Made by a program: the position numbers and the translations under genes. From IMG/VR virus record IMGVR_UViG_3300045988_161728: 64,000 nt of DNA; one strand, 5' to 3'. This stretch comes from a virus. Its lineage: Duplodnaviria; Heunggongvirae; Uroviricota; Caudoviricetes. Of this stretch, positions 1 to 37,111 are shown in pieces (within the stretch, counting starts at the first letter, position 1; each line of letters starts with the position of its first letter). A model generated the notes under the pieces. That model was not told the DNA's origin and did not search any database. It was given only the letters and a program-made list of their open reading frames with translations.

Positions 1-387
1 CTGAAATGCAATGGTGCAGCATTTTCTTCTGAAAAGTACCCAAATCTGGCAAAGGTTTATCCCACCAATAAATTACCGGATTTACGCGGTGAGTTTATCC
101 GTGGTTGGGATGATGGGCGAGGTGTGGATGCGGGAAGGGTCATCTTAAGCATACAAGGGTGGTTAACAGGAAGTCATTATCATAATATTCGGTCATGGGA
201 CGCGTGGGATAACACGGTATTGGTGCCAAATGACAGAGGGGGGGATAGTCTGTTGTCGACAGATAACGCCGTCCAAGAAGGAGCGATTAATGGTAAATTT
301 ACCAGTCAATACAGAACGGAGTTATCTGGGGGGAATGAAACCCGCCCACGTAACATTGCCTTCAATTATATTGTGAGAGCAGCATAA
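1..387 (+). CDS. Tail-fibre variable C-terminal cassette (Sv'-like), 5' end outside window
   Basis: Frame open from nt 1 (LKCNGAAFSSEKYPNLAK...ETRPRNIAFNYIVRAA); shares conserved head and tail motifs with the C-terminus of the 2026..3855 fibre; stop overlaps next start (TAATG). Confidence 0.7.
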   Translation: MKCNGAAFSSEKYPNLAKVYPTNKLPDLRGEFIRGWDDGRGVDAGRVILSIQGWLTGSHYHNIRSWDAWDNTVLVPNDRGGDSLLSTDNAVQEGAINGKFTSQYRTELSGGNETRPRNIAFNYIVRAA

Positions 388-998
388 TGGATAATGCGAT
401 ATTAAATAGCGAACTTATAGCCATACAGGCAGGAAACATTATCGTTTATAACTATGATGGTGGTAATCGGGAATATATTTCTGCATCAACTGAATATCTT
501 GCTGTTGGCGTTGGTATTCCGGCAAATTCTTGTTTGGATGCTCCAGGCTCACATAAAGCAGGTTATGCGATTCTCCGTTCAGAGGATTTAAGTTCATGGG
601 AGTATGTGCCAGATCATCGTGGCGAAACTGTCTATAGCATTGACACTGGGAATCCCGAAGAAATCACGGTGTTGGGTGACTATCCGGAAAATACAACCAC
701 TATCGCCCCGCTAACACCATACGACAAATGGGATGGAGAGAAATGGGTGGTTGATACTGAGGCTCAACATAGTGCAGCTGTAGATGCAGCAGAAACAAAA
801 CGTCAGTCATTGATTGATACTGCGATGGATTCCATTAGTCTGATTCAGTTGAAATTACGGGCTGGACGGAAGTTGACGCAGGCAGAAACCACGCAGCTTA
901 ACTCCGTGCTAGATTATATAGACGAGCTGAACGCGATGGATTTAACCACGGCACCAGATCTCAACTGGCCTGAAAAACAACTTTCTACAGCCAGTTGA
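387..998 (+). CDS. U: Tail-fibre assembly chaperone (U/Tfa family)
   Basis: 203 aa ORF immediately downstream of and translationally coupled to an Sv cassette; size, position and C-terminal region typical of Mu/P1 U and lambda Tfa proteins. Confidence 0.7.
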   Translation: MDNAILNSELIAIQAGNIIVYNYDGGNREYISASTEYLAVGVGIPANSCLDAPGSHKAGYAILRSEDLSSWEYVPDHRGETVYSIDTGNPEEITVLGDYPENTTTIAPLTPYDKWDGEKWVVDTEAQHSAAVDAAETKRQSLIDTAMDSISLIQLKLRAGRKLTQAETTQLNSVLDYIDELNAMDLTTAPDLNWPEKQLSTAS

Positions 999-1004
999 TA
1001 TAAT

Positions 1005-1511
1005 TAATCCGCCCTCACAATATAATTAAATGCAATATTACGAGGGCGGGTTTCTAAGCCAGCAGTACCTAAATTAGCTACGGACTGTTTATATGTTTTA
1101 AAAGTTCCATAATTAGGGGCTGGCAATCCTGCATCGCTTGTGTTCCCCCATCTGATAACTCCCGTATTACCACTAGTAGCCCATGCCTCGTCAAAGTAGA
1201 AATTAATTGAGCGGTCAGTTGCTACGGTTGATTTTGACGGTAATCCGTGAGCATGATCCTCCGTTGCATATCCTTGCTCGCTTAAAATAGAGCGACCAGA
1301 GTCAATCCCTCGCCCATCATCCCAACCACGGATAAACTCACCGCGTAAATCAGGTAATTTTAACGTTGGGTAAACCTTTGCCAGATTTGGGTACTTTTCA
1401 GAAGAAAATGCTGCACCATTGCATTTCAGCCACCCCGTTGGAGGTGTGGCTGAGGGCCATGGAACAGGTACACCAACGGGCAGCGCCGAGCCTTCTCCTA
1501 AACCAACGTTT
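1005..1511 (-). CDS. Startless tail-fibre Sv cassette (C)
   Basis: 168 codons with no ATG, beginning NVGLGEGSALPVGVPVPWP...LKCNGAAFSSEKYPNLAKVYPT and ending ETRPRNIAFNYIVRAD; same conserved ends as the other Sv cassettes, so it is a silent alternative fibre tip. Confidence 0.5.
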
Positions 1512-1518
1512 TTATGTG
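1493..1518 (-). other. cix/gix-like crossover half-site at start of cassette C
   Basis: TTCTCCTAAACC-AA-CGTTTTTATGTG; left half identical to the site inside S. Confidence 0.4.
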
Positions 1519-2015
1519 GCCCTTACAATGTAATTAAAAGCAACGTTGCGGGGGCGCATTGATATCCATGCCCCGGTAAAATTATCCTCTGCCGTCCTTT
1601 GAGTGCCTGTTATGGAGTTATCTGATGATGCTGGAACATAATCGCTATTATCTCCTGCTTTAGGATTAGCAGGGTTTCCAACAGTTATAACAGAATCAGC
1701 AGTAGCATAAGCGATACCTACTTTGACATTAGTAGTCAGATCGACACCGTAATAATCCTGCAAAGCTGTACGAATAAATGTTGCAGTCTGACCACTTAGC
1801 AATGAACGCCCTGTATCAATCCCTCTCGAATCATCCCAACCACGGATAAACTCACCGCGTAAATCAGGTAATTTTAACGTTGGGTAAACCTTTGCCAGAT
1901 TTGGGTACTTTTCAGAAGAAAATGCTGCTCCGTTACATTTTAGCCAGCCCGTTGGTGGTGTTTCTAAGGGCCACGGAACGGGCACACCAACAGGCAGTGC
2001 AGAGCCTTCCCCCAA
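1512..2015 (-). CDS. Startless tail-fibre Sv cassette (B)
   Basis: ORF-track 'M' is a TTG (Leu) inside the conserved KNVGLGEGS junction; frame is open back to 2036; ends MRPRNVAFNYIVRAT; lies directly after the S stop. Confidence 0.5.
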   Translation of the reverse strand: MGEGSALPVGVPVPWPLETPPTGWLKCNGAAFSSEKYPNLAKVYPTLKLPDLRGEFIRGWDDSRGIDTGRSLLSGQTATFIRTALQDYYGVDLTTNVKVGIAYATADSVITVGNPANPKAGDNSDYVPASSDNSITGTQRTAEDNFTGAWISMRPRNVAFNYIVRAT

Positions 2016-2032
2016 ACCAACGTTTTTATGCC
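2007..2032 (-). other. cix/gix-like crossover half-site at start of cassette B
   Basis: TTCCCCCAAACC-AA-CGTTTTTATGCC; shares the conserved half with the sites at 1493 and 2494. Confidence 0.4.
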
Positions 2033-3855
2033 GCCCTTACGATGTAATTAAATGCGATATTTCGTGGACGGGTTTCACTCCCGCCAGTATTACCAATACT
2101 CCCTCGAGAATGAAGTGTCGGTGATGGAATCAAATTCCCTCCTGTATTTGAGGCATCAAGCCCCCGTCCTTGTGTGTATGTTTTTTTGAAAATTGTCGCC
2201 AGCTCCCATTCATCTTTTGTGTCGTAACCATCATTGGCTACAACAATATGTCGGTGCTTTTCCAGCATTCCTGTCTGAATGCTCAATAAAGCACGTCCCG
2301 CATCCACCCCGCGCCCATCATCCCAGCCGCGAATAAATTCTCCCCGTAAATCCGGTAATTTATTGGTGGGATAAGCCTTTGCCAGATTTGGGTACTTTTC
2401 AGAAGAAAATGCTGCACCATTGCATTTCAGCCACCCCGTTGGAGGTGTGGCTGAGGGCCATGGAACAGGTACACCAACGGGCAGCGCCGAGCCTTCTCCT
2501 AAACCAAGGTAATCAAGAACGCTCTGAATACTGGTCTTACCAAGAATGGCGCGTCCAACACTTGTCAATGCAGTTAACGCGGCACGATCAACACCTGTGA
2601 AATAAGGGAGTTTATCTGCTGCTGTAGCTAGTGCCGCTAGAGCAGTGAGCGTAGCGTCTGCCGCTTGCTTTCCATTAGCCAAATCATATGCAGCCTTGAC
2701 AGCTTTCGGTGTGGCGGCCAGCACTTCGGACGTGCTATTGGTAGCACTGCTGAGTTGGACTATCCCTTTTTGAGCCGTGGTTGCATCCTGGGCTGTATAC
2801 TTCCCGTTAGCCAGGTCATATGCAGCCTTGACAGCTTTCGGTGTGGCGGCCAGCACTTCGGACGTGCTGTTAGTGGCACTACTGAGCTGAGTGATGCCTT
2901 TCGCTGTCAATGAAGCTGTTGGCACACCAGTGATCTGATTCCAGGGATGTGTATGACTGGATGGTGCCTTTCCGGCTGCTAGATCGTATGCAGCTTTAAC
3001 CGCTTTTGGAGTTGCAGCTAATGTTTCAGAAGTGCTGTTAGTGTCGCTACTGAGCTGAACTATCCCTTTTTGTGTCGTGGTTGCATCCTGGGCTGTATAC
3101 TTCCCGTTAGCCAGGTCATATGCAGCCTTGACAGCTTTCGGTGTGGCGGCCAGCACTTCAGACGTGCTGTTAGTAGCACTGCTGAGCTGAACTAATCCCT
3201 TTTGCGTTGTGCTTGCATCCTGCGCCGTATACTTGCTTTTCGCCAGATCGTAGGCTTTTTTAACTGCCAGCGAACTTGCAGCGACATCACTTCTGGTACT
3301 GGTTACAGAGTCGGAAATTTCAATGCCTATCGTGAGATCGATGCGGTCGGATACATCTATCATTTCCTGAGTAATAGCAGATACGCCAGCAGGGATATTC
3401 ACCGTACAAACAAGCAGTTCCCCATCTCCTAACTGATATGAATCGGTATAGGTTCTGGCAACAAATTCAGCCGCATGAATATGTGACGCGGTATTAACCT
3501 GATAAGAATCTTCTCCAAGGAGGTATCTTCCCTTCAGCACAATTGCATATTTCTTACCTGCGCTAAGTGCAAGAGAAATATCCTTACGCTGCTGAATAGT
3601 TACCTGGTAGAATTCACCAATATTCACTGACGCCGCGCCAGCGGTTTTATCACCATCCACTGAGGTGATTAACAGGTTCATTCCACCGCCAGGCTTAGGC
3701 AAGAAACCAGCATAAAATCCCGGGTCAACAATTCCCCTGAATTTTCGGTTTAGAGCGGCTGACAGATATGGTTCGTGGTATTGCACATCAGCCACCAGAG
3801 CCAACGACTCGGGTGATGGGTAAGTAACCGATGTAACAACTGTAACGTCATTCAT
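2026..3855 (-). CDS. S: Tail fibre protein S (constant part fused to Sv cassette A)
   Basis: Probable start ATG at 3855 (MNDVTVV..., AAGGAT RBS) rather than the ORF-track start at 3942; internal fibre repeats (AATPKAVKAAYDLA..TAQDATTTQKGIVQLSS) recur 4-5 times; C-terminal 170 aa match the other Sv cassettes. Confidence 0.8.
   Translation of the reverse strand: MNDVTVVTSVTYPSPESLALVADVQYHEPYLSAALNRKFRGIVDPGFYAGFLPKPGGGMNLLITSVDGDKTAGAASVNIGEFYQVTIQQRKDISLALSAGKKYAIVLKGRYLLGEDSYQVNTASHIHAAEFVARTYTDSYQLGDGELLVCTVNIPAGVSAITQEMIDVSDRIDLTIGIEISDSVTSTRSDVAASSLAVKKAYDLAKSKYTAQDASTTQKGLVQLSSATNSTSEVLAATPKAVKAAYDLANGKYTAQDATTTQKGIVQLSSDTNSTSETLAATPKAVKAAYDLAAGKAPSSHTHPWNQITGVPTASLTAKGITQLSSATNSTSEVLAATPKAVKAAYDLANGKYTAQDATTAQKGIVQLSSATNSTSEVLAATPKAVKAAYDLANGKQAADATLTALAALATAADKLPYFTGVDRAALTALTSVGRAILGKTSIQSVLDYLGLGEGSALPVGVPVPWPSATPPTGWLKCNGAAFSSEKYPNLAKAYPTNKLPDLRGEFIRGWDDGRGVDAGRALLSIQTGMLEKHRHIVVANDGYDTKDEWELATIFKKTYTQGRGLDASNTGGNLIPSPTLHSRGSIGNTGGSETRPRNIAFNYIVRAA
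2494..2519 (-). other. Candidate 26-bp Cin/Min-type crossover site at the Sc/Sv junction
   Basis: TTCTCCTAAACC-AA-GGTAATCAAGAA, an imperfect dyad with a 2-bp core, placed exactly where the constant sequence (..SVLDYLG) meets the conserved cassette head (LGEGS..); resembles the gix/hix/cix family as remembered. Confidence 0.45.
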
Positions 3856-13999: not shown

Positions 14000-14105
14000 G
14001 TTTTCTCATTATAACCTCACCTGCCTTATAACTCATTTAGGGTACATATTTTCGCCTTTAAAAAAAAGAGGTTATTAGATCCAACTGTGTATTTATTAAA
14101 CAAAT

Positions 14106-14122
14106 AATGCTCTAATAAATTT
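14106..14122 (+). promoter_or_regulatory. C1-operator-like site upstream of the ImmI promoter
   Basis: AATGCTCTAATAAATTT, one mismatch to the P1 operator consensus ATTGCTCTAATAAATTT (from memory). Confidence 0.55.
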
Positions 14123-14308
14123 GTATTTTTAAGTCGCGAATGCTATCTTTTCGCATCATATTGACCTTTTAATCGTTCAGGCTTATAGTTCCACCGTCTT
14201 AGCAAATTCTGCGACCGGGTTTGACAGCCTGAATGTTAGTGCGGACAACCGCAGATTTCCGATATTGCGGTATTTTTGTGTCCGTAAACCGCGTTACGCC
14301 CGAATTAT

Positions 14309-14385
14309 GGTGGGGCGTGATGGGGAGGCTTCGGCCTGCTGGTTTCACTAACGCCAGTCTGTCAACCCTGTCACGTCCTGCCACC
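14309..14385 (+). ncRNA. c4: C4-type antisense repressor RNA of ImmI
   Basis: 77-nt segment with paired ends (GGTGGGG...CCACC); internal TCACTAAC and CTGTCAA are complementary to GTTAGTGA (14418..14425, covering the icd RBS) and TTGACAG (14389..14395) just downstream. Confidence 0.5.
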
Positions 14386-14435
14386 TGTTTGACAGCGGGT
14401 AGCAGGTTGTTAAACCTGTTAGTGAGGCCGTAACT

Positions 14436-14657
14436 ATGGTTAATGCCAATCCTTGCACACGCCCAGAATTCATCTGGCGTTTCTATTCCTGTAAAAAACA
14501 CCACTATCACTTCGTTATCGCAGCAACTGAAGACGAAGCACGCTCTCAATTGCCTGATGGCCCCTGCATTTTTACTGCCCGTTTTTCTACTAACTCGCGC
14601 AATTCACTTAGTTACTGGAACCTCCCCTTCTCTGCCGACGTTCAGGGGGGTTTATGA
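14436..14657 (+). CDS. icd: Icd-like small protein translationally coupled to ant
   Basis: 73 aa ORF with GAGG RBS inside the c4 target; stop overlaps the ant start (ATGA). Confidence 0.45.
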   Translation: MVNANPCTRPEFIWRFYSCKKHHYHFVIAATEDEARSQLPDGPCIFTARFSTNSRNSLSYWNLPFSADVQGGL

Positions 14658-15697
14658 AAAAACCTCTCGTCACCCGTAATGAAATAGCCGAAGCGATCGC
14701 TTTGCATACTGCCTGTATGCCGACACGGGAGATCCCCGGCGCAATTGCTAACTATTTCATGATAACCAGGCGTTTTTATACCCGAACAGATAAGGCTGTG
14801 ATCAACAGGCTACTGATAGCCGAGATCAGGGATTATTTGATTGAACAAGGACGTCTACGTTACGCAACAGTGGCAGCAGAAATAAGAAAGGAGGCACATA
14901 GAATGACCGGTAATAATTTGAATGTTGAAAAAACAGCACCTGTTACGTCAGCTACGCCAGCACCAGCCGTGAATATCATCCCCAACACCGGAGACACAAT
15001 CGACAGCCAAACATTGTTGAAGATGGTCAATGAGGCACGCAAGTTATGTGGAGAACCAGAGGTTAGAAACAATAAATTCATCGAAAAAATACTCGATGAA
15101 CTTGAAGGTGAATTTTACACAAAAAGTGCAAAATCCCATGGCACAAGGGCTGGGCGCTCTTTTGAGGTCATCACCATGACCTACAAACAAGCCCTGCGAG
15201 TCGCCGCGCGCGAGTCAAAAGCGGTCCGCCGTTCGCTGATCGACAAACTGGAAGAATTGCAGCAGGCAAACTCCCCTGCCCCATCGATCCCCCAAACATT
15301 ACCAGAAGCTCTACGCCTGGCTGCCGAGTTGGCAGAACAGAAAATGCAGCTGGAACAACAGCTGGTGGCCGCAGCCCCTAAAGTAGATTTTGCCGACCGG
15401 GTATCAGTGGCTAATGGAATCCTGATCGGGAACTTTGCAAAGGTCGTTGGACTTAAGCAAAACGCCCTTTTCTCATGGTTGCGCCAGAACGGCATTCTCA
15501 TGGCTTTTGGTGCGCGCAAAAACGTACCGCGCCAACAGTACATCAACGCCGGATATTTCACGGTGAAAGAAGTGGTGCTGGATGATGAAAATGGCTACCA
15601 GATACGGCTGACGCCCCAATTAACGGGTAAAGGCCAGCAGTGGTTAACTCGCAAGCTACTTGATGCTGGTTTGTTAAAACCAGTAGCAATAGGTTAA
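14654..15697 (+). CDS. ant1: Antirepressor Ant1 (KilAC-type C-terminal domain)
   Basis: 347 aa; C-terminal 130 aa (PQTLPEALRLAAELAEQK...TGKGQQWLTRKLLDAGLL) is paralogous to the C-terminus of the next gene; sits downstream of c4/icd. Confidence 0.7.
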   Translation: MKKPLVTRNEIAEAIALHTACMPTREIPGAIANYFMITRRFYTRTDKAVINRLLIAEIRDYLIEQGRLRYATVAAEIRKEAHRMTGNNLNVEKTAPVTSATPAPAVNIIPNTGDTIDSQTLLKMVNEARKLCGEPEVRNNKFIEKILDELEGEFYTKSAKSHGTRAGRSFEVITMTYKQALRVAARESKAVRRSLIDKLEELQQANSPAPSIPQTLPEALRLAAELAEQKMQLEQQLVAAAPKVDFADRVSVANGILIGNFAKVVGLKQNALFSWLRQNGILMAFGARKNVPRQQYINAGYFTVKEVVLDDENGYQIRLTPQLTGKGQQWLTRKLLDAGLLKPVAIG

Positions 15698-15774
15698 CAA
15701 AAGAAAAAACCTGCCAGCAAACTGGCAGGTTTCTGAGCAGATCGACCAACCCGATCTGGATCGAGTCAGAAAAA

Positions 15775-15791
15775 TTTGCTCTAATAAATTT
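15775..15791 (+). promoter_or_regulatory. C1-operator-like site upstream of kilA
   Basis: TTTGCTCTAATAAATTT. Confidence 0.55.
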
Positions 15792-15860
15792 CGTTTTCTA
15801 AGTGCAAAGAATCACCATTTCGAGCTGGTGATTGAAGGTTGATGCAAATTTGGAGAAAAA

Positions 15861-17832: not shown

Positions 17833-18014
17833 TACAATCGTTGCGGGTGCTTGAGGCTATCTGCTTCAGGCATTACCCGACAAGCAGATAGAAGAAAGCC
17901 CCAGATAACATTACGCGTCCTGCAAGACGCTTAACATTAATCTGAGGCCATATCTATGCTTAGCATACGTAGATTAGCCCTCTCCCCTTTTTAGGAGCAA
18001 GGAATTTTTTACTG

Positions 18015-18647
18015 CTATGCCGCCTTTCCAATTATGGATTCAGCGACCAGAACAACCCCATGCTTACTTCGATCTGGGTGTTCACTCCATATCTCGGATT
18101 CAGGAATACTTACCCCGTCATAGCAAACACGTTCGCCGTCAAACGGGTAATACTGAGCGGCATCGGTGTCGAGGATAAACACTTTTAGCTCGGAAGAGCG
18201 ACGGGCGATGTGTTGCCAAAGAGCTTTTCCACCTTCGTATTGCTCATTATCACTGAGCAAAACAACACCAGCTTTTGAGGCTACGGTTTCGTAAACAAAA
18301 GTAGCTAAACCGACATCCCGGACGGTTCCATCAACCACGATACCTTCAATCTGGGCAACATCGCTATCCTCCCAGAACTTCCTTACCAGTACGCCTTCAA
18401 GCTGCGGGCGACGTTGAAGTTCAAGAGTAGCGACAACCTTATGGCGCATATCACCATCGATAACAGAAGGCGCAGCCTCTATTACAGCTGCAAATGGGGT
18501 TTTGGAATCCCATATAACCTGGTAAAGCACACCCTGGATGGTAACTCCGTCCAGGATCGAAAATCGACGAGCGACAGTACCCGGGGAGTACGACATTGGA
18601 ATCACAGCCATTTTAGAGTCCCCCTTTAACAGTACAGGCACAAACAT
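18015..18647 (-). CDS. Hypothetical protein
   Basis: 210 aa ORF; likely start at internal Met (MAVIPMS...). Confidence 0.4.
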   Translation of the reverse strand: MFVPVLLKGDSKMAVIPMSYSPGTVARRFSILDGVTIQGVLYQVIWDSKTPFAAVIEAAPSVIDGDMRHKVVATLELQRRPQLEGVLVRKFWEDSDVAQIEGIVVDGTVRDVGLATFVYETVASKAGVVLLSDNEQYEGGKALWQHIARRSSELKVFILDTDAAQYYPFDGERVCYDGVSIPESEIWSEHPDRSKHGVVLVAESIIGKAA

Positions 18648-32191: not shown

Positions 32192-34206
32192 AAGAGCTGT
32201 GCTATGGATCTGTTTGCAGTGGAATTGAAGCCGCGAGTATTGCCTGGGAACCGTTGGGTATGCGTCCGGCGTGGTTTGCTGAAATCGAGCCTTTTCCATC
32301 TGCCGTTCTTGCGCACCGCTGGCCCCATGTCGCCAACCTTGGCGACATGACAAAACTTGCCAAAAAAGTCCTGGCTGGGGAAATCGAATCCCCTGATGTG
32401 CTCGTCGGGGGTACGCCTTGTCAGGCATTCAGTATCGCGGGCTTACGTGGTGGGCTTGATGATGAACGCGGCGCGCTAACTTTGAAGTATGTGGAGCTTG
32501 CAAATGCAATTGACGACAAACGGTCTGAGTCCTTCCTCAAACCGACAGTTATCGTCTGGGAAAATGTCCCAGGAGTCCTGTCATCGGCAGATAACGCCTT
32601 CGGATGTTTCCTTGCCGGATTGGCTGGAGAAGATGCGCCATTTGAACCAGGTGATCGACCTGAATCAGGAAAAAGTAACGCGTTCTGGCGGTGGGATGGC
32701 AAAACCGGTTGCCATGCTCCAAAGTGGCCGCAGTGTGGTTGTATTTATGGACCGCAGCGAAAGGTGGCCTGGAGAATCCTTGATGCCCAATACTTCGGAG
32801 TGGCACAACGACGCCGACGCGTGTTTGTTGTCGCAAGTGCTCGAACAGACCTCGATCCCGCAACGGTACTTTTTGAGTTCGAAGGCGTGCGCCGGAATAT
32901 TGCGCCGAGCAGAGGCGAGGGGAAGGAAACTACCAGATATACTTCAAACATCGCTATCAGATCTTGCGATGATACAAACATAGTTGCCATGGCACATGGG
33001 CAAGGAGGGGCTGAGATAAAAACCGATAATTCGGCACCAACTTTGACATGTAACCATGAAGCACCAATTGTATTGCTCGTCGACGGTAGAATGCGCCGTC
33101 TTATCCCTGTCGAATGTGAAAGGCTGCAAGGTTTTCCTGATGGACATACATTGATCCCTACGGAAAAGCGTAAAAAAGTTTCTTCAGATGAACTGGCATA
33201 CCTTCGCAAAAACTATCCTGATTTGAGCGAAGAAGAGGCCGCGATGCTTGCAGCTGACGGACCGCGTTACAAAGCGATCGGCAATAGTATGGCGATACCA
33301 GTAATGCGCTGGATTGGCGATCGGATTGCCAAGGCTGCATGTCGGCAGAAGGAAGGGAGTGAAACAAAAGAGCGAAAAGTTAAACCAGCGGCAGAATTCG
33401 AACGGTCCATATTCAAATGGGCTGGTGGAAAATTTGGTGTTCTGGAACAAATCTTTCGCTATTTGCCAGAAGGGAAGCGCCTGATTGAGCCTTTCGTTGG
33501 TGGCGGAGCTGTCTTCATGAATGCCGGATACCAGGAAAATCTGCTAAATGATGTGAATGCTGACCTGATTAACTTTTACAAGACTCTGCAACGCGAGGCG
33601 CATTCACTTATCACTCTGGCACATCGTTTCTTCCAGGACTACAACACGCAGGAAGGATACCTGGCAGTACGGAATGCGTTTAACAAACAAGTCTATGATG
33701 ATTTACATCGCGCAGCGGCGTTTTTGTTCCTGAACCGACATTGTTTTAACGGATTGACGCGTTACAACCAAGCCGGTGAGTTCAATGTCGGTTATGGGAA
33801 GTATAAAACTCCGTATTTCCCATTGCAGGAGATGGAAGCCTTCCTTGGTGCGGAAGGGCGTTCTGAGTTTGTATGTGGTGATTTTGCTGCGGTGATTGAA
33901 GCTGCCGGAGAAGGAGATGTCATCTTTTGCGATCCGCCGTATGAACCGCTCCCAAATACAGAGGGATTCACGAACTATTCCGGTCATGACTTTAAGTTTG
34001 AAGAGCAAAAACGCCTGGCGTCTCTGTTGACGGATGCTCATCGCCGAGGTGCAAAGGTTCTCATTACTAACAGTGGCGCGCCAAACATCAGAGAACTTTA
34101 TCAGGACAGTGGCTTCAGAGTGGAACCTCTTTTTGCCAGACGTTCTGTGTCTTGTAAGGGGGACACTCGAGGTGTTGCTCATGACGTTATAGCAATATTG
34201 CTCTAA
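32188..34206 (+). CDS. dmt: Bifunctional DNA methyltransferase (N-terminal C5-cytosine, C-terminal Dam-like N6-adenine)
   Basis: C5-MTase motifs [11 protein letters not shown] and ENVPG in the first half; Dam-type FKWAGGK and DPPY in the second half; GTG start with GGAGAGG RBS. Confidence 0.85.
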
Positions 34207-34213
34207 TAAATTT
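34197..34213 (+). promoter_or_regulatory. C1-operator-like site overlapping the dmt stop
   Basis: ATTGCTCTAATAAATTT, perfect match to the remembered consensus. Confidence 0.6.
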
Positions 34214-34390
34214 ATTAGTGTAATATCGCCTCAATGAATCGTGATTTATAGAGCGATTTAGCTGTTAGCCGCGACAGGCGCGGCGGCAAGTATGGCGGGG
34301 TAGTGACTCCTTCCCCCTCATGACGCCGAGTTGCCAGGTTGACCATACGCCTAAGTGGCAACACCGAAGTGCGTTACGAGCTTCCAGTTT

Positions 34391-34881: not shown

Positions 34882-34957
34882 GATGGTGTAGCTCAGCGGT
34901 TAGAGCGGTTGACTGTTAATCAACGGGTCGATGGTTCAAATCCATCCACCATCGCCA
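34882..34957 (+). tRNA. tRNA-Asn (anticodon GUU)
   Basis: Manual cloverleaf: 7-bp acceptor GATGGTG/CACCATC, D-arm GCTC..GAGC, anticodon loop CTGTTAA, T-arm GATGG-TTCAAAT-CCATC, encoded CCA. Confidence 0.8.
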
Positions 34958-34959
34958 AT

Positions 34960-35035
34960 GCCGGTTTAGCTCAGTTGGTAGAGCGCCTGCCTTGTAAGCA
35001 GGATGTCAGCGGTTCGAGTCCGTTAATCGGCACCA
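34960..35035 (+). tRNA. tRNA-Thr (anticodon UGU)
   Basis: Acceptor GCCGGTT/AATCGGC, anticodon loop CTTGTAA, T-loop TTCGAGT, encoded CCA; starts 2 nt after tRNA-Asn. Confidence 0.8.
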
Positions 35036-37035: not shown

Positions 37036-37111
37036 GGCCCTTTAGCTCAGTGGTTAGAGCTGGCGACTCATAATCGCACGGTCACCGGTTCAAGTCCGGT
37101 AGGGGCCACCA
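37036..37111 (+). tRNA. tRNA-Ile2-like (anticodon CAU; Met/Ile ambiguity)
   Basis: Acceptor GGCCCTT/AGGGGCC, anticodon loop CTCATAA, T-loop TTCAAGT, encoded CCA; P1 carries an ileX-type tRNA (from memory). Confidence 0.75.

What the first reader, a model, noticed from the sequence alone, without database searches (positions are those of the whole stretch)
14300..14440. Intact c4 antisense RNA with both target complementarities, one covering the icd RBS
A 77-nt segment with paired termini (14309..14385) contains TCACTAAC and CTGTCAA. Just downstream, the icd leader carries the complementary GTTAGTGA, overlapping the GAGG RBS, and TTGACAG. This is the ImmI arrangement in which the repressor RNA is cut from the same transcript it regulates.
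Basis: partly seen in the sequence, partly recalled or inferred. Interest (0 to 1): 0.4.

Follow-up and report, generated by a model that had tools for sequence, protein, structure and literature searches.

The report
Phage P1 c4 antisense RNA
This is the well-known 77-nucleotide c4 repressor RNA of bacteriophage P1, intact and sitting with its target sites in front of the icd-ant antirepressor genes of a P1-like plasmid prophage, so the finding is correct but ordinary.

Summary
Window 14309..14385 (+) is the c4 gene of the phage P1 immI operon. It scores 68.8 bits against Rfam C4 (threshold 45). It folds at -42 kcal/mol (z = -4.55) with b' (TCACTAAC, 14345-52) and a' (CTGTCAA, 14359-65) unpaired.

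The exact complements lie downstream: a2 at 14389-95 and b2 at 14418-25. b2 overlaps the GAGG ribosome-binding site 8 nt before the icd ATG at 14436.

The P1 reference annotation maps onto the same coordinates. Over 14050..14700 the window differs from reference P1 at two leader bases only, 14199 and 14219. Icd and Ant1 are identical to P1.

In 114 P1-family loci, 2 a-types and 6 b-types occur in 11 combinations. All four target boxes are exactly complementary in every locus.

The mechanism (RNA cut from its own transcript, blocks icd translation and hence ant) is established for P1 and is inferred here by identity. Novelty: already known.

Side observation: the a1/b1 leader is homologous to the Salmonella Gifsy-1 sRNA IsrK, whose downstream "orf45" contains a C4-family RNA.

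The parts
14106..14122 (+). C1 repressor operator Oc4 (former Op51), which controls transcription of the c4-icd-ant operon
   Evidence: Mapped from the P1 reference annotation (window coordinate = L001 coordinate + 12549). The sequence is identical to P1 here.
14121..14149 (+). Sigma-70 promoter P2c4 (former P51a)
   Evidence: P1 annotation; identical sequence.
14161..14189 (+). Sigma-70 promoter P1c4 (former P51b), TTGACC-17-TATAGT
   Evidence: P1 annotation. It was also the only promoter-like site found by the consensus scan of 14000-15800.
14183..14235 (+). c4-a1b1 leader motif: two hairpins, the second presenting a1 in its loop
   Evidence: Rfam RF03163 at 47.5 bits (threshold 46.7). P1 is a seed member of this motif. 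The private variant T at 14199 breaks one pair of hairpin 1. G at 14219 is the family consensus and restores a pair that reference P1 lacks.
14221..14227 (+). a1 box TTGACAG, complementary to a'
   Evidence: It is the exact reverse complement of a' in 114 of 114 loci.
14235..14242 (+). b1 box GTTAGTG(C), complementary to 7 of the 8 bases of b'
   Evidence: The 7-mer is the exact reverse complement of b' in 114 of 114 loci.
14248..14277 (+). Terminator-like hairpin (ACCGCA..TGCGGT, -7.5 kcal/mol) followed by ATTTTT, lying between b1 and c4. Its function in P1 is unproven.
   Evidence: It forms part of a sub-threshold Rfam isrK match covering 14196..14277 (39.4 bits, threshold 50, E = 3e-7). The hairpin is conserved in 114 loci without informative variation.
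14309..14385 (+). c4 gene: the 77-nt C4 antisense repressor RNA
   Evidence: Rfam RF01695 at 68.8 bits (threshold 45) over 14303..14388. Fold of -42 kcal/mol, z = -4.55. The P1 misc_RNA c4 feature maps to exactly these coordinates. 100% identical to P1.
14345..14352 (+). b' (TCACTAAC) in the loop of the third hairpin of C4
   Evidence: Unpaired probability 0.79-1.0. It is the hypervariable specificity box, with 6 types seen.
14359..14365 (+). a' (CTGTCAA), a single-stranded joining segment of C4
   Evidence: Unpaired probability 0.93-1.0. Two types are seen.
14389..14395 (+). a2 target box TTGACAG in the icd leader
   Evidence: Complementary to a' in 114 of 114 loci.
14418..14427 (+). b2 target box GTTAGTGA (14418-25) overlapping the icd Shine-Dalgarno GAGG (14424-27)
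   Evidence: Complementary to b' in 114 of 114 loci. The local b'-region/b2-region duplex is -19.3 kcal/mol over 13 pairs.
14436..14657 (+). icd, encoding a 73-aa cell-division inhibitor; its translation is needed for ant translation
   Evidence: ORF. The protein is identical to P1 Icd. The stop codon overlaps the ant1 start as ATGA at 14654-57.
14654..15697 (+). ant1 (347 aa), with ant2 starting in the same frame at 14903: the antirepressor that C4 ultimately keeps silent
   Evidence: ORF. The protein is identical to P1 Ant1. P1 annotation.

Best explanation
This is the c4 gene of a P1-type immI immunity operon carried on a P1-like plasmid prophage of E. coli.

The mechanism runs as follows.
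1. The C1-controlled promoters P51a and P51b transcribe one RNA that contains the leader with a1/b1, then c4, then the a2/b2 boxes, icd and ant1/ant2.
2. The 77-nt C4 RNA is excised from this transcript. RNase P makes its 5' end in front of GGU at 14309.
3. Two single-stranded segments of C4 pair with the icd leader. The loop b' pairs with b2 and the joining strand a' pairs with a2.
4. The b'/b2 duplex covers the GAGG ribosome-binding site, so icd is not translated.
5. The ant1 start overlaps the icd stop (ATGA), so ant is not translated either. The untranslated message is also terminated prematurely.
6. Without antirepressor, C1 stays active. Lysogeny is maintained and superinfecting P1-type phages are held down.
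7. The a'/b' sequences set the immunity specificity, and this window has the classical P1 specificity.

Shown here: the sequence, the fold, the accessibility of a' and b', the complementarities, their covariation in relatives, and identity with P1.

Inferred from published P1 work, by identity: the processing, the action in trans, the translational coupling and the transcriptional polarity.
For: - Rfam C4 scores 68.8 bits against a threshold of 45.
- The fold is -42 kcal/mol, z = -4.55, with a' and b' unpaired.
- The motif positions are exact.
- Over 651 bp only two bases differ from reference P1, both upstream of a1. Icd and Ant1 are identical to P1.
- The P1 reference features c4, a1, b1, a2, b2, icd and ant map onto the same coordinates.
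- The P1/P7 alignment shows four changed bases in a'/b' matched by compensating changes in all four target boxes.
- In nine P1-like phages, 100% of cells are paired and 8 of 15 pairs (a2/b2) or 8 of 14 pairs (a1/b1) change on both sides. Slid controls give only 24-48% pairing.
- In 114 loci there are 11 combinations of a and b types, all exactly complementary at all four boxes.
- Literature summaries support the mechanism: a 77 +/- 1 nt RNA processed by RNase P, with the b' loop occluding the RBS (PMC5320573), and a'/b' pairing with a1/b1 and a2/b2 (Weinberg 2010 supplement).
Against: Nothing in the sequence argues against it. The caveats are these.
- Expression and processing cannot be seen in DNA.
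- A private G-to-T change at 14199 breaks one base pair in the first hairpin of the a1b1 leader motif, with unknown effect.
- The genome as a whole is a mosaic P1 relative, about 80% covered at about 98% identity. The state of the other immunity regions (immC, immT) was not examined.
Confidence: 0.97

Rival explanations
1. c4 is a protein-coding gene. On this reading the repressor is the 66-aa product of ORF 14233..14433, which spans b1, c4 and a2. This was the reading before 1990 and it still appears in some database records.
For: The ORF exists in the window. Record X15639 annotates 'c4: CDS', RCS47 annotates 'transcriptional regulator C4', and JL22 annotates a hypothetical protein at the same place.
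Against: - The start codon is ATA in SJ46, D6, 673R5 and many IMG/VR loci.
- A 1-nt indel shifts the frame in P7-type sequences.
- The ORF length ranges from 17 to 76 aa among 114 loci.
- Variation is confined to the RNA pairing boxes and is compensated in the targets rather than following codon structure.
- The RNA model matches at E = 2.8e-11.
Confidence: 0.01
2. The hairpin and the two short complementarities are a chance coincidence with no regulatory meaning.
For: Taken singly, 7- and 8-mers are not rare. TTGACAG occurs 9 times and GTTAGTGA twice on the + strand of the window.
Against: - The joint occurrence in the 50-nt spacer has frequency 5e-6 in shuffles.
- No shuffle of 200 folds as well.
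- Complementarity is perfect across 11 specificity combinations in 114 loci.
Confidence: 0.005
3. The elements are all present, but the main regulatory logic is that described for the homologous Gifsy-1 locus. There the C4 segment acts largely in cis, as part of an inactive mRNA structure paired with the a1/b1 leader. A short terminated leader RNA of the IsrK type then acts in trans as an activator of antirepressor translation. Free C4 acting as a trans repressor would play a smaller role.
For: - The leader 14196..14277 matches Rfam isrK at 39.4 bits, E = 3e-7, including a terminator-like hairpin and U-run.
- isrK hits above threshold lie directly upstream of C4 hits in Stx2a_1447, in an O157 fragment and in Gifsy-1.
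- In Gifsy-1 the published compensatory mutants G28A/C162U and G31A/C159U fall in a1 and a'.
- IsrK supplied in trans raises anrP translation about 140-fold.
Against: - For P1 itself, repression in trans by the processed 77-nt RNA is the published mechanism.
- The isrK score is below the family threshold.
- The P1 hairpin is weak (-7.5 kcal/mol, 12-nt loop) and the simple terminator scan did not pick it up.
- The stem does not vary, so there is no covariation support.
- The two mechanisms are not mutually exclusive.
Confidence: 0.1
4. The locus is intact in sequence but silent or decayed in this element, for example because of the private leader variant or defects elsewhere in the mosaic prophage.
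For: The G-to-T change at 14199 weakens hairpin 1 of the leader motif. The window is mosaic relative to P1.
Against: - The operator, both promoters, c4, all four boxes, icd and ant1/2 are identical to functional P1.
- The same 651 bp occurs at 100% identity in two complete E. coli plasmids, and at 99% identity or more in 14 of 601 matching plasmid records.
Confidence: 0.04

Closest known systems
c4 antisense RNA of bacteriophage P1 (immI operon; Rfam RF01695; c4 misc_RNA feature of AF234172 / NC_005856)
   Same: The 77-nt RNA, a', b', a1, b1, a2, b2, the icd RBS, icd and ant1/2 are all base-for-base identical. The promoters and the C1 operator are also identical.
   Different: There are two single-base differences in the leader upstream of a1. 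The first is 14199 T instead of G. The second is 14219 G instead of T, where G is the family consensus. The surrounding genome is a mosaic P1 relative, not the laboratory P1.
c4 of bacteriophage P7 (heteroimmune with P1)
   Same: Same structure, same operon layout, and the same invariant scaffold.
   Different: P7 has b' CACAATC and a' CTGCTAA where this window has CACTAAC and CTGTCAA. All four P7 target boxes carry matching changes. The window therefore has P1 specificity, not P7 specificity.
IsrK / STnc1160 ('orf45') / anrP locus of Salmonella prophage Gifsy-1 (PMC4825925)
   Same: The order of parts is the same: promoter, then an a1/b1 leader with a terminator hairpin (IsrK, RF01394 at 79.3 bits, overlapping c4-a1b1 at 48.1 bits), then a C4-family RNA (69.0 bits), then a2 and b2 over the RBS region, then the antirepressor. 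An RNA of about 80 nt is processed from the read-through transcript.
   Different: - The primary sequences differ, and so do the a/b boxes (TTGGCGT and TCACCG).
- No icd homologue was noted. The antirepressor start is coupled to 'orf45', which overlaps the C4 RNA.
- The published model stresses activation by the short leader RNA rather than repression by C4.
- The P1-type leader scores below the isrK threshold.
CI RNA immunity system with seqA and seqC, which from my own knowledge is that of satellite phage P4
   Same: A small RNA processed from an untranslated primary transcript pairs with two complementary sequences located upstream and downstream of itself. This is described in the discussion of PMC4825925.
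   Different: CI pairing causes transcription termination rather than RBS occlusion. This system was not examined with the tools here.
sar antisense RNA controlling ant in the immI region of phage P22 (own knowledge; Wu et al. 1987 appears in the reference list seen)
   Same: An antisense RNA keeps an antirepressor gene silent in a secondary immunity region.
   Different: sar is transcribed from the opposite strand of its target, so it is a true cis-antisense RNA. It has no structural or sequence relationship to C4. Not tested here.

Membership tests
C4 antisense RNA (Rfam RF01695) | Covariance-model score at or above the curated gathering score of 45 bits | tested here: met
   68.8 bits, E = 2.8e-11, full-length match to model positions 1-87 at 14303..14388.
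C4 antisense RNA (Rfam RF01695) | Architecture: a long outer stem enclosing a short hairpin with a stable tetraloop, a second hairpin with the b' loop, and a single-stranded a' segment | tested here: met
   The minimum-energy and centroid structures are identical. They show a 17-bp outer stem, a UUCG hairpin, a 6-bp hairpin with the 9-nt loop UUCACUAAC, and a free CUGUCAA segment.
P1-type immI operon (c4-icd-ant) | a' and b' are complementary to a2 and b2 downstream of c4, with b2 overlapping the RBS of icd | tested here: met
   Exact 7- and 8-nt complements lie at 14389-95 and 14418-25, with GAGG at 14424-27 and the ATG at 14436. They covary in 114 loci.
P1-type immI operon (c4-icd-ant) | A second target pair, a1 and b1, upstream of c4 within the c4-a1b1 motif (RF03163) | tested here: met
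   47.5 bits against a threshold of 46.7, which is marginal because of the 14199 variant. a1 is at 14221-27 and b1 at 14235-41.
P1-type immI operon (c4-icd-ant) | c4 is co-transcribed with its targets from C1-controlled promoters and is followed by icd, which is translationally coupled to ant1/ant2 | tested here: met
   The operator and both promoters are identical to the annotated P1 features. Icd and Ant1 are identical to P1 and the stop and start overlap as ATGA. Co-transcription itself is inferred.
P1-type immI operon (c4-icd-ant) | The mature 77-nt RNA is produced by processing, with the 5' end made by RNase P | not testable with these tools
   The sequence context is identical to P1 (AUUAU|GGUGGGG at the 5' end, GCCACC at the 3' end). 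The processing is known from the literature only.
P1-type immI operon (c4-icd-ant) | C4 represses icd/ant in trans and determines P1 versus P7 immunity specificity | not testable with these tools
   The boxes are of the P1 type. The function is known from the literature.
isrK Hfq-binding RNA (Rfam RF01394), considered for the leader 14196..14277 | Covariance-model score at or above the gathering score of 50 bits | tested here: not met
   39.4 bits, E = 3.2e-7 in the 401-nt search. Homology is nevertheless supported by direct BLAST similarity (77-79% identity, E from 8e-18 for D6 and JL22 to 5e-14 for P1) between an above-threshold isrK member and P1-family leaders.
isrK Hfq-binding RNA (Rfam RF01394), considered for the leader 14196..14277 | A short RNA ended by a Rho-independent terminator, with partial read-through into the antirepressor operon | tested here: inconclusive
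   A 6-bp stem with a 12-nt loop followed by AUUUUU is present and conserved. It is weak, was not found by the consensus terminator scan, and shows no covariation.

The most novel reading that the evidence does not exclude
P1-type immI operons may make a second small RNA. This would be a leader RNA of about 80 nt of the IsrK type, spanning 14196 to about 14277 and ending at the conserved hairpin and U-run between b1 and c4. It would carry a1 and b1 and act as a decoy that titrates C4 (an anti-antisense RNA), switching icd/ant on.

This would give a function to the a1/b1 sites, which have had none since 1990. It would also unify P1 c4 with the Gifsy-1 IsrK system, whose 'orf45'/STnc1160 is a C4-family RNA by the Rfam score.
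Probability: 0.3. Interest if true: 0.45.

Novelty: already known. Interest (0 to 1): 0.1.

Why it matters
The finding itself adds nothing new. c4 of P1 has been a textbook antisense repressor since 1990, and the curated P1 genome annotates the same 77 nt and the same target boxes.

Its practical value is for annotation. The element is a P1-type plasmid prophage with P1 rather than P7 immunity specificity. The RNA gene is easily missed or mis-called as a protein in automated annotations.

Two by-products may be of modest interest to phage-RNA specialists.
- The a and b specificity boxes assort as independent modules across P1-like elements: 2 a types and 6 b types in 11 observed combinations, always with matching targets.
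- The unexplained a1/b1 leader is homologous to the experimentally studied IsrK sRNA of Gifsy-1. That system provides a testable model for what a1/b1 do.

Tried and rejected
- I tried to read the primary P1 papers (Lobocka 2004 PMC523184; Citron & Schuster 1992 PMC312442; Hartmann 1995 PMC41593; Heinrich 1994 PMC196329). None is held. The mechanism is therefore cited through secondary summaries and my own knowledge.
- The Rfam mir-1231 hit on c4 (20 bits against a threshold of 80) is noise.
- The protein-coding reading of c4 is rejected.
- A BLAST search for Gifsy-1 using an isrK-bearing fragment did not retrieve it. I fetched Gifsy-1 by accession instead.
- Covariation analysis of the terminator-like stem was uninformative because the stem hardly varies.
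- I considered whether the two leader differences from reference P1 correspond to the P1vir immI substitutions reported in PMC8198154. The positions are given only in a figure that is not held. The window is clearly not P1vir, since it is mosaic elsewhere. I left this open.
- The first 38 nt of c4 are invariant in the 114-locus set by construction, because they were the search pattern. I drew no conclusion from that.

Full report
**1. The observation**

On the + strand:
- TCACTAAC starts at 14345 and is its only occurrence in the window.
- CTGTCAA starts at 14359.
- TTGACAG starts at 14389.
- GTTAGTGA starts at 14418.
- GAGG lies at 14424-14427. It overlaps the last two bases of GTTAGTGA and ends 8 nt before the ATG at 14436, which opens a 73-codon ORF.

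The 77-nt segment 14309..14385 folds at -42 kcal/mol, and the minimum-energy and centroid structures are identical. The fold has a 17-bp outer stem that pairs the termini, a small UUCG hairpin, a 6-bp hairpin whose 9-nt loop holds b', and a free strand holding a'. Two hundred dinucleotide shuffles average -27.6 +/- 3.2 kcal/mol and none folds as well, giving z = -4.55. In the ensemble b' and a' are unpaired with probability 0.79-1.0.

The two exact complements co-occur in shuffles of the 50-nt c4-icd spacer at a frequency of 5e-6.

**2. What it is**

A scan of the whole window against Rfam gives C4 antisense RNA (RF01695) at 14303..14388. The score is 68.8 bits against a threshold of 45, E = 2.8e-11, full length. 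The scan also gives the c4-a1b1 motif (RF03163) at 14183..14235, with 47.5 bits against a threshold of 46.7.

The 651 bp from 14050 to 14700 are 99.7% identical to bacteriophage P1 (AF234172, NC_005856). The curated P1 annotation maps onto the window with a constant offset:

| Feature | Window coordinates |
|---|---|
| c4 misc_RNA | 14309..14385 |
| a2 | 14389-95 |
| b2 | 14418-25 |
| a1 | 14221-27 |
| b1 | 14235-42 |
| C1 operator Oc4 | 14106-22 |
| Promoter P2c4 (P51a) | 14121-49 |
| Promoter P1c4 (P51b) | 14161-89 |
| icd | 14436..14657 |
| ant1 | 14654..15697 |
| ant2 | from 14903 |

The consensus promoter scan independently finds P1c4 as the only promoter-like site in 14000-15800.

Only two bases differ from reference P1 in those 651 bp, 14199 (T for G) and 14219 (G for T). 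Both lie in the leader upstream of a1. Icd and Ant1 are identical in protein sequence to P1.

The window as a whole is not laboratory P1 but a mosaic relative, about 80% covered at about 98% identity. The exact 651 bp occur in complete E. coli plasmids such as p19-7P1 (NZ_CP123018). In all, 601 plasmid records carry the locus. The element is therefore a P1-like plasmid prophage.

**3. Comparative evidence for the pairings**

The P1/P7 alignment shows that the four bases by which a' and b' differ are matched by compensating changes in a1, b1, a2 and b2.

In nine P1-like phages every cell of the a'/a2 and b'/b2 pairings forms a standard pair, and 8 of 15 pairs change on both sides. The same holds for a'/a1 and b'/b1, where 8 of 14 pairs change on both sides. 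Sliding the partner by 1-3 columns drops pairing to 24-48%.

I then collected 113 complete loci from IMG/VR using the invariant 5' half of c4 as the search pattern. Together with the window they show:
- two a' types, CTGTCAA and CTGCTAA;
- six b' types, CACTAAC, CACAATC, CGTAAGT, CATGTAC, CATTCGT and CACAAGT;
- eleven combinations of these types.

In all 114 loci a1 and a2 are the exact reverse complement of a', and b1 and b2 are the exact reverse complement of b'. The window has the P1/P1 combination, as do 15 of the 114 loci.

Within the part of c4 not fixed by the search pattern, variation is limited to b' (14347-52), a' (14362-63) and one stem position, 14369, where U and C alternate opposite a G.

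The old protein-coding reading (ORF 14233..14433, still annotated as a CDS in some records) fails. The start codon is ATA in many relatives, a 1-nt indel shifts the frame, and the ORF length ranges from 17 to 76 aa.

**4. Mechanism**

The published P1 mechanism was reached here through summaries in held papers and my own knowledge of Citron & Schuster 1990 and 1992, Biere et al. 1992, Riedel et al. 1993, Hartmann et al. 1995 and Heinrich et al. 1995. It runs as follows.
1. c4, icd and ant1/2 are co-transcribed from the C1-controlled promoters.
2. The 77 +/- 1 nt C4 RNA is cut out, with RNase P making the 5' end at GGU.
3. b' and a' pair with b2 and a2, and the b'/b2 duplex occludes the icd RBS.
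4. ant translation depends on icd translation. In the window the icd stop and ant1 start overlap as ATGA at 14654-57.
5. The untranslated message suffers premature termination.

The four-base a'/b' difference explains P1/P7 heteroimmunity.

In the window the local duplex between the b' region and the b2 region is -19.3 kcal/mol. The duplex between the a' region and the a2 region is -8.9 kcal/mol. The duplex of the segment carrying both b' and a' with the leader beats all but 6 of 1000 shuffles.

Shown here: sequence, fold, accessibility, complementarity, covariation and identity with P1. Inferred: processing, action in trans, translational coupling and polarity.

**5.

Its function in P1 has never been settled. 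Citron and Schuster proposed that it competes with a2/b2 for C4, as recounted by Weinberg et al..

A sensitive Rfam scan shows that the leader 14196..14277 also matches isrK (RF01394) at 39.4 bits. This is below the threshold of 50, but E = 3e-7. The match includes a hairpin (ACCGCA..UGCGGU, -7.5 kcal/mol) followed by AUUUUU, between b1 and c4.

In other phages isrK hits above threshold lie directly upstream of C4 hits:
- Stx2a_1447: isrK 67.0 bits and C4 83.6 bits.
- An O157 fragment: isrK 53.8 bits and C4 80.7 bits.

The O157 fragment aligns with P1-family leaders at 77-79% identity, with E from 8e-18 (D6, JL22) to 5e-14 (P1).

In Gifsy-1 itself, where IsrK was characterised, the layout on the minus strand is:
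- isrK at 34316..34240 (79.3 bits), overlapping a c4-a1b1 hit (48.1 bits);
- a C4 hit at 34214..34131 (69.0 bits), 25 nt downstream;
- a2 (TTGGCGT) and then b2 (TCACCG, running into GGAGG) just before the anrP ATG.

Numbering from 34316 reproduces every base named in Hershko-Shalev et al. 2016. A107 is the AUG at the 5' edge of the C4 hit, so 'orf45' overlaps the C4 RNA. G28 and G31 lie in a1. C159 and C162 lie in a'. The published compensatory mutants are therefore a1:a' pairs.

That paper reports that short IsrK supplied in trans activates antirepressor translation about 140-fold. It also reports an RNA of about 80 nt, STnc1160, processed from the read-through transcript. It compares STnc1160 with the CI RNA but does not cite the P1 c4 work. 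Other held papers list IsrK and c4 side by side without linking them.

This suggests, but does not show, that P1-type leaders produce an IsrK-like decoy RNA. The P1 stem hardly varies among the 114 loci, so covariation is silent. The simple terminator scan did not call it.

**6. Verdict**

The finding is correct in both observation and interpretation. It is the already known P1 c4 antisense RNA in a P1-like plasmid prophage with P1 immunity specificity. Novelty: already known. Interest: low. The side lead on a1/b1 and IsrK is the only part with some potential, and it lies outside the finding as given.

Noticed in passing
window 14183..14280: The immI leader carrying a1/b1 matches Rfam isrK below threshold (39.4 bits against 50, E = 3e-7). 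It ends in a conserved terminator-like hairpin and U-run between b1 and c4. P1-type operons might therefore make a short IsrK-like decoy RNA.
   Followed up: partly
L133 (Gifsy-1, NC_010392) 34329..34076, minus strand: The characterised IsrK sRNA overlaps a c4-a1b1 hit and lies 25 nt upstream of a full C4-family RNA (69 bits), which sits inside the published 'orf45'/STnc1160. The published compensatory mutants G28/C162 and G31/C159 are a1:a' pairs. The IsrK paper does not cite the P1 c4 work.
   Followed up: partly
window 14345..14365 and L013-L132 (IMG/VR loci): Among 114 P1-family loci, two a' types and six b' types occur in 11 combinations, always with exactly matching a1, b1, a2 and b2. 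The two specificity boxes therefore assort as independent modules. Examples are JL22 (P1-type a with P7-type b) and D6 (P1-type a with SJ46-type b).
   Followed up: yes
window 14199 and 14219: These are the only two differences from reference P1 in 651 bp. The T at 14199 is private among the nine P1-like sequences aligned and breaks a pair in hairpin 1 of the leader motif. The G at 14219 is the family consensus and restores a pair in the a1 hairpin that laboratory P1 c1.100 lacks. Whether either matches the P1vir immI substitutions (PMC8198154) could not be checked.
   Followed up: partly
window 17845..18019: There is a strong Rfam sok (hok/sok antitoxin RNA) hit of 89.7 bits just after repL, but no Hok-like ORF follows it. 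A 210-aa ORF on the opposite strand starts at 18647 and ends at 18015. This post-repL segment is absent from reference P1 and is shared with phages 673R5, RCS47 and SJ46. It may be a hok/sok remnant.
   Followed up: partly
window 34882..34954, 34960..35032, 37036..37108: There are three tRNA genes on the + strand, as expected for a P1-family genome.
   Followed up: no
L011 (Stx2a_1447, AP012536) 777..1928: The annotated 'antirepressor' CDS spans an isrK hit (1137..1213) and a C4 hit (1238..1325). The CDS start is therefore probably over-extended across two RNA genes. The same layout occurs in mEp460, where the CDS is annotated Rha.
   Followed up: no
window 1..3108: The first 3.1 kb of the window has no match in reference P1 in the megablast search. 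Matches begin at 3109, in or near sit. This is probably a variable tail-fibre or C-segment region of this mosaic element.
   Followed up: no
L005 (JL22) 227..397; records X15639 and FO818745: The c4 RNA gene is annotated as a protein in several public records ('hypothetical protein gp42', 'c4: CDS', 'transcriptional regulator C4'). This is an annotation artefact of the pre-1990 reading.
   Followed up: yes
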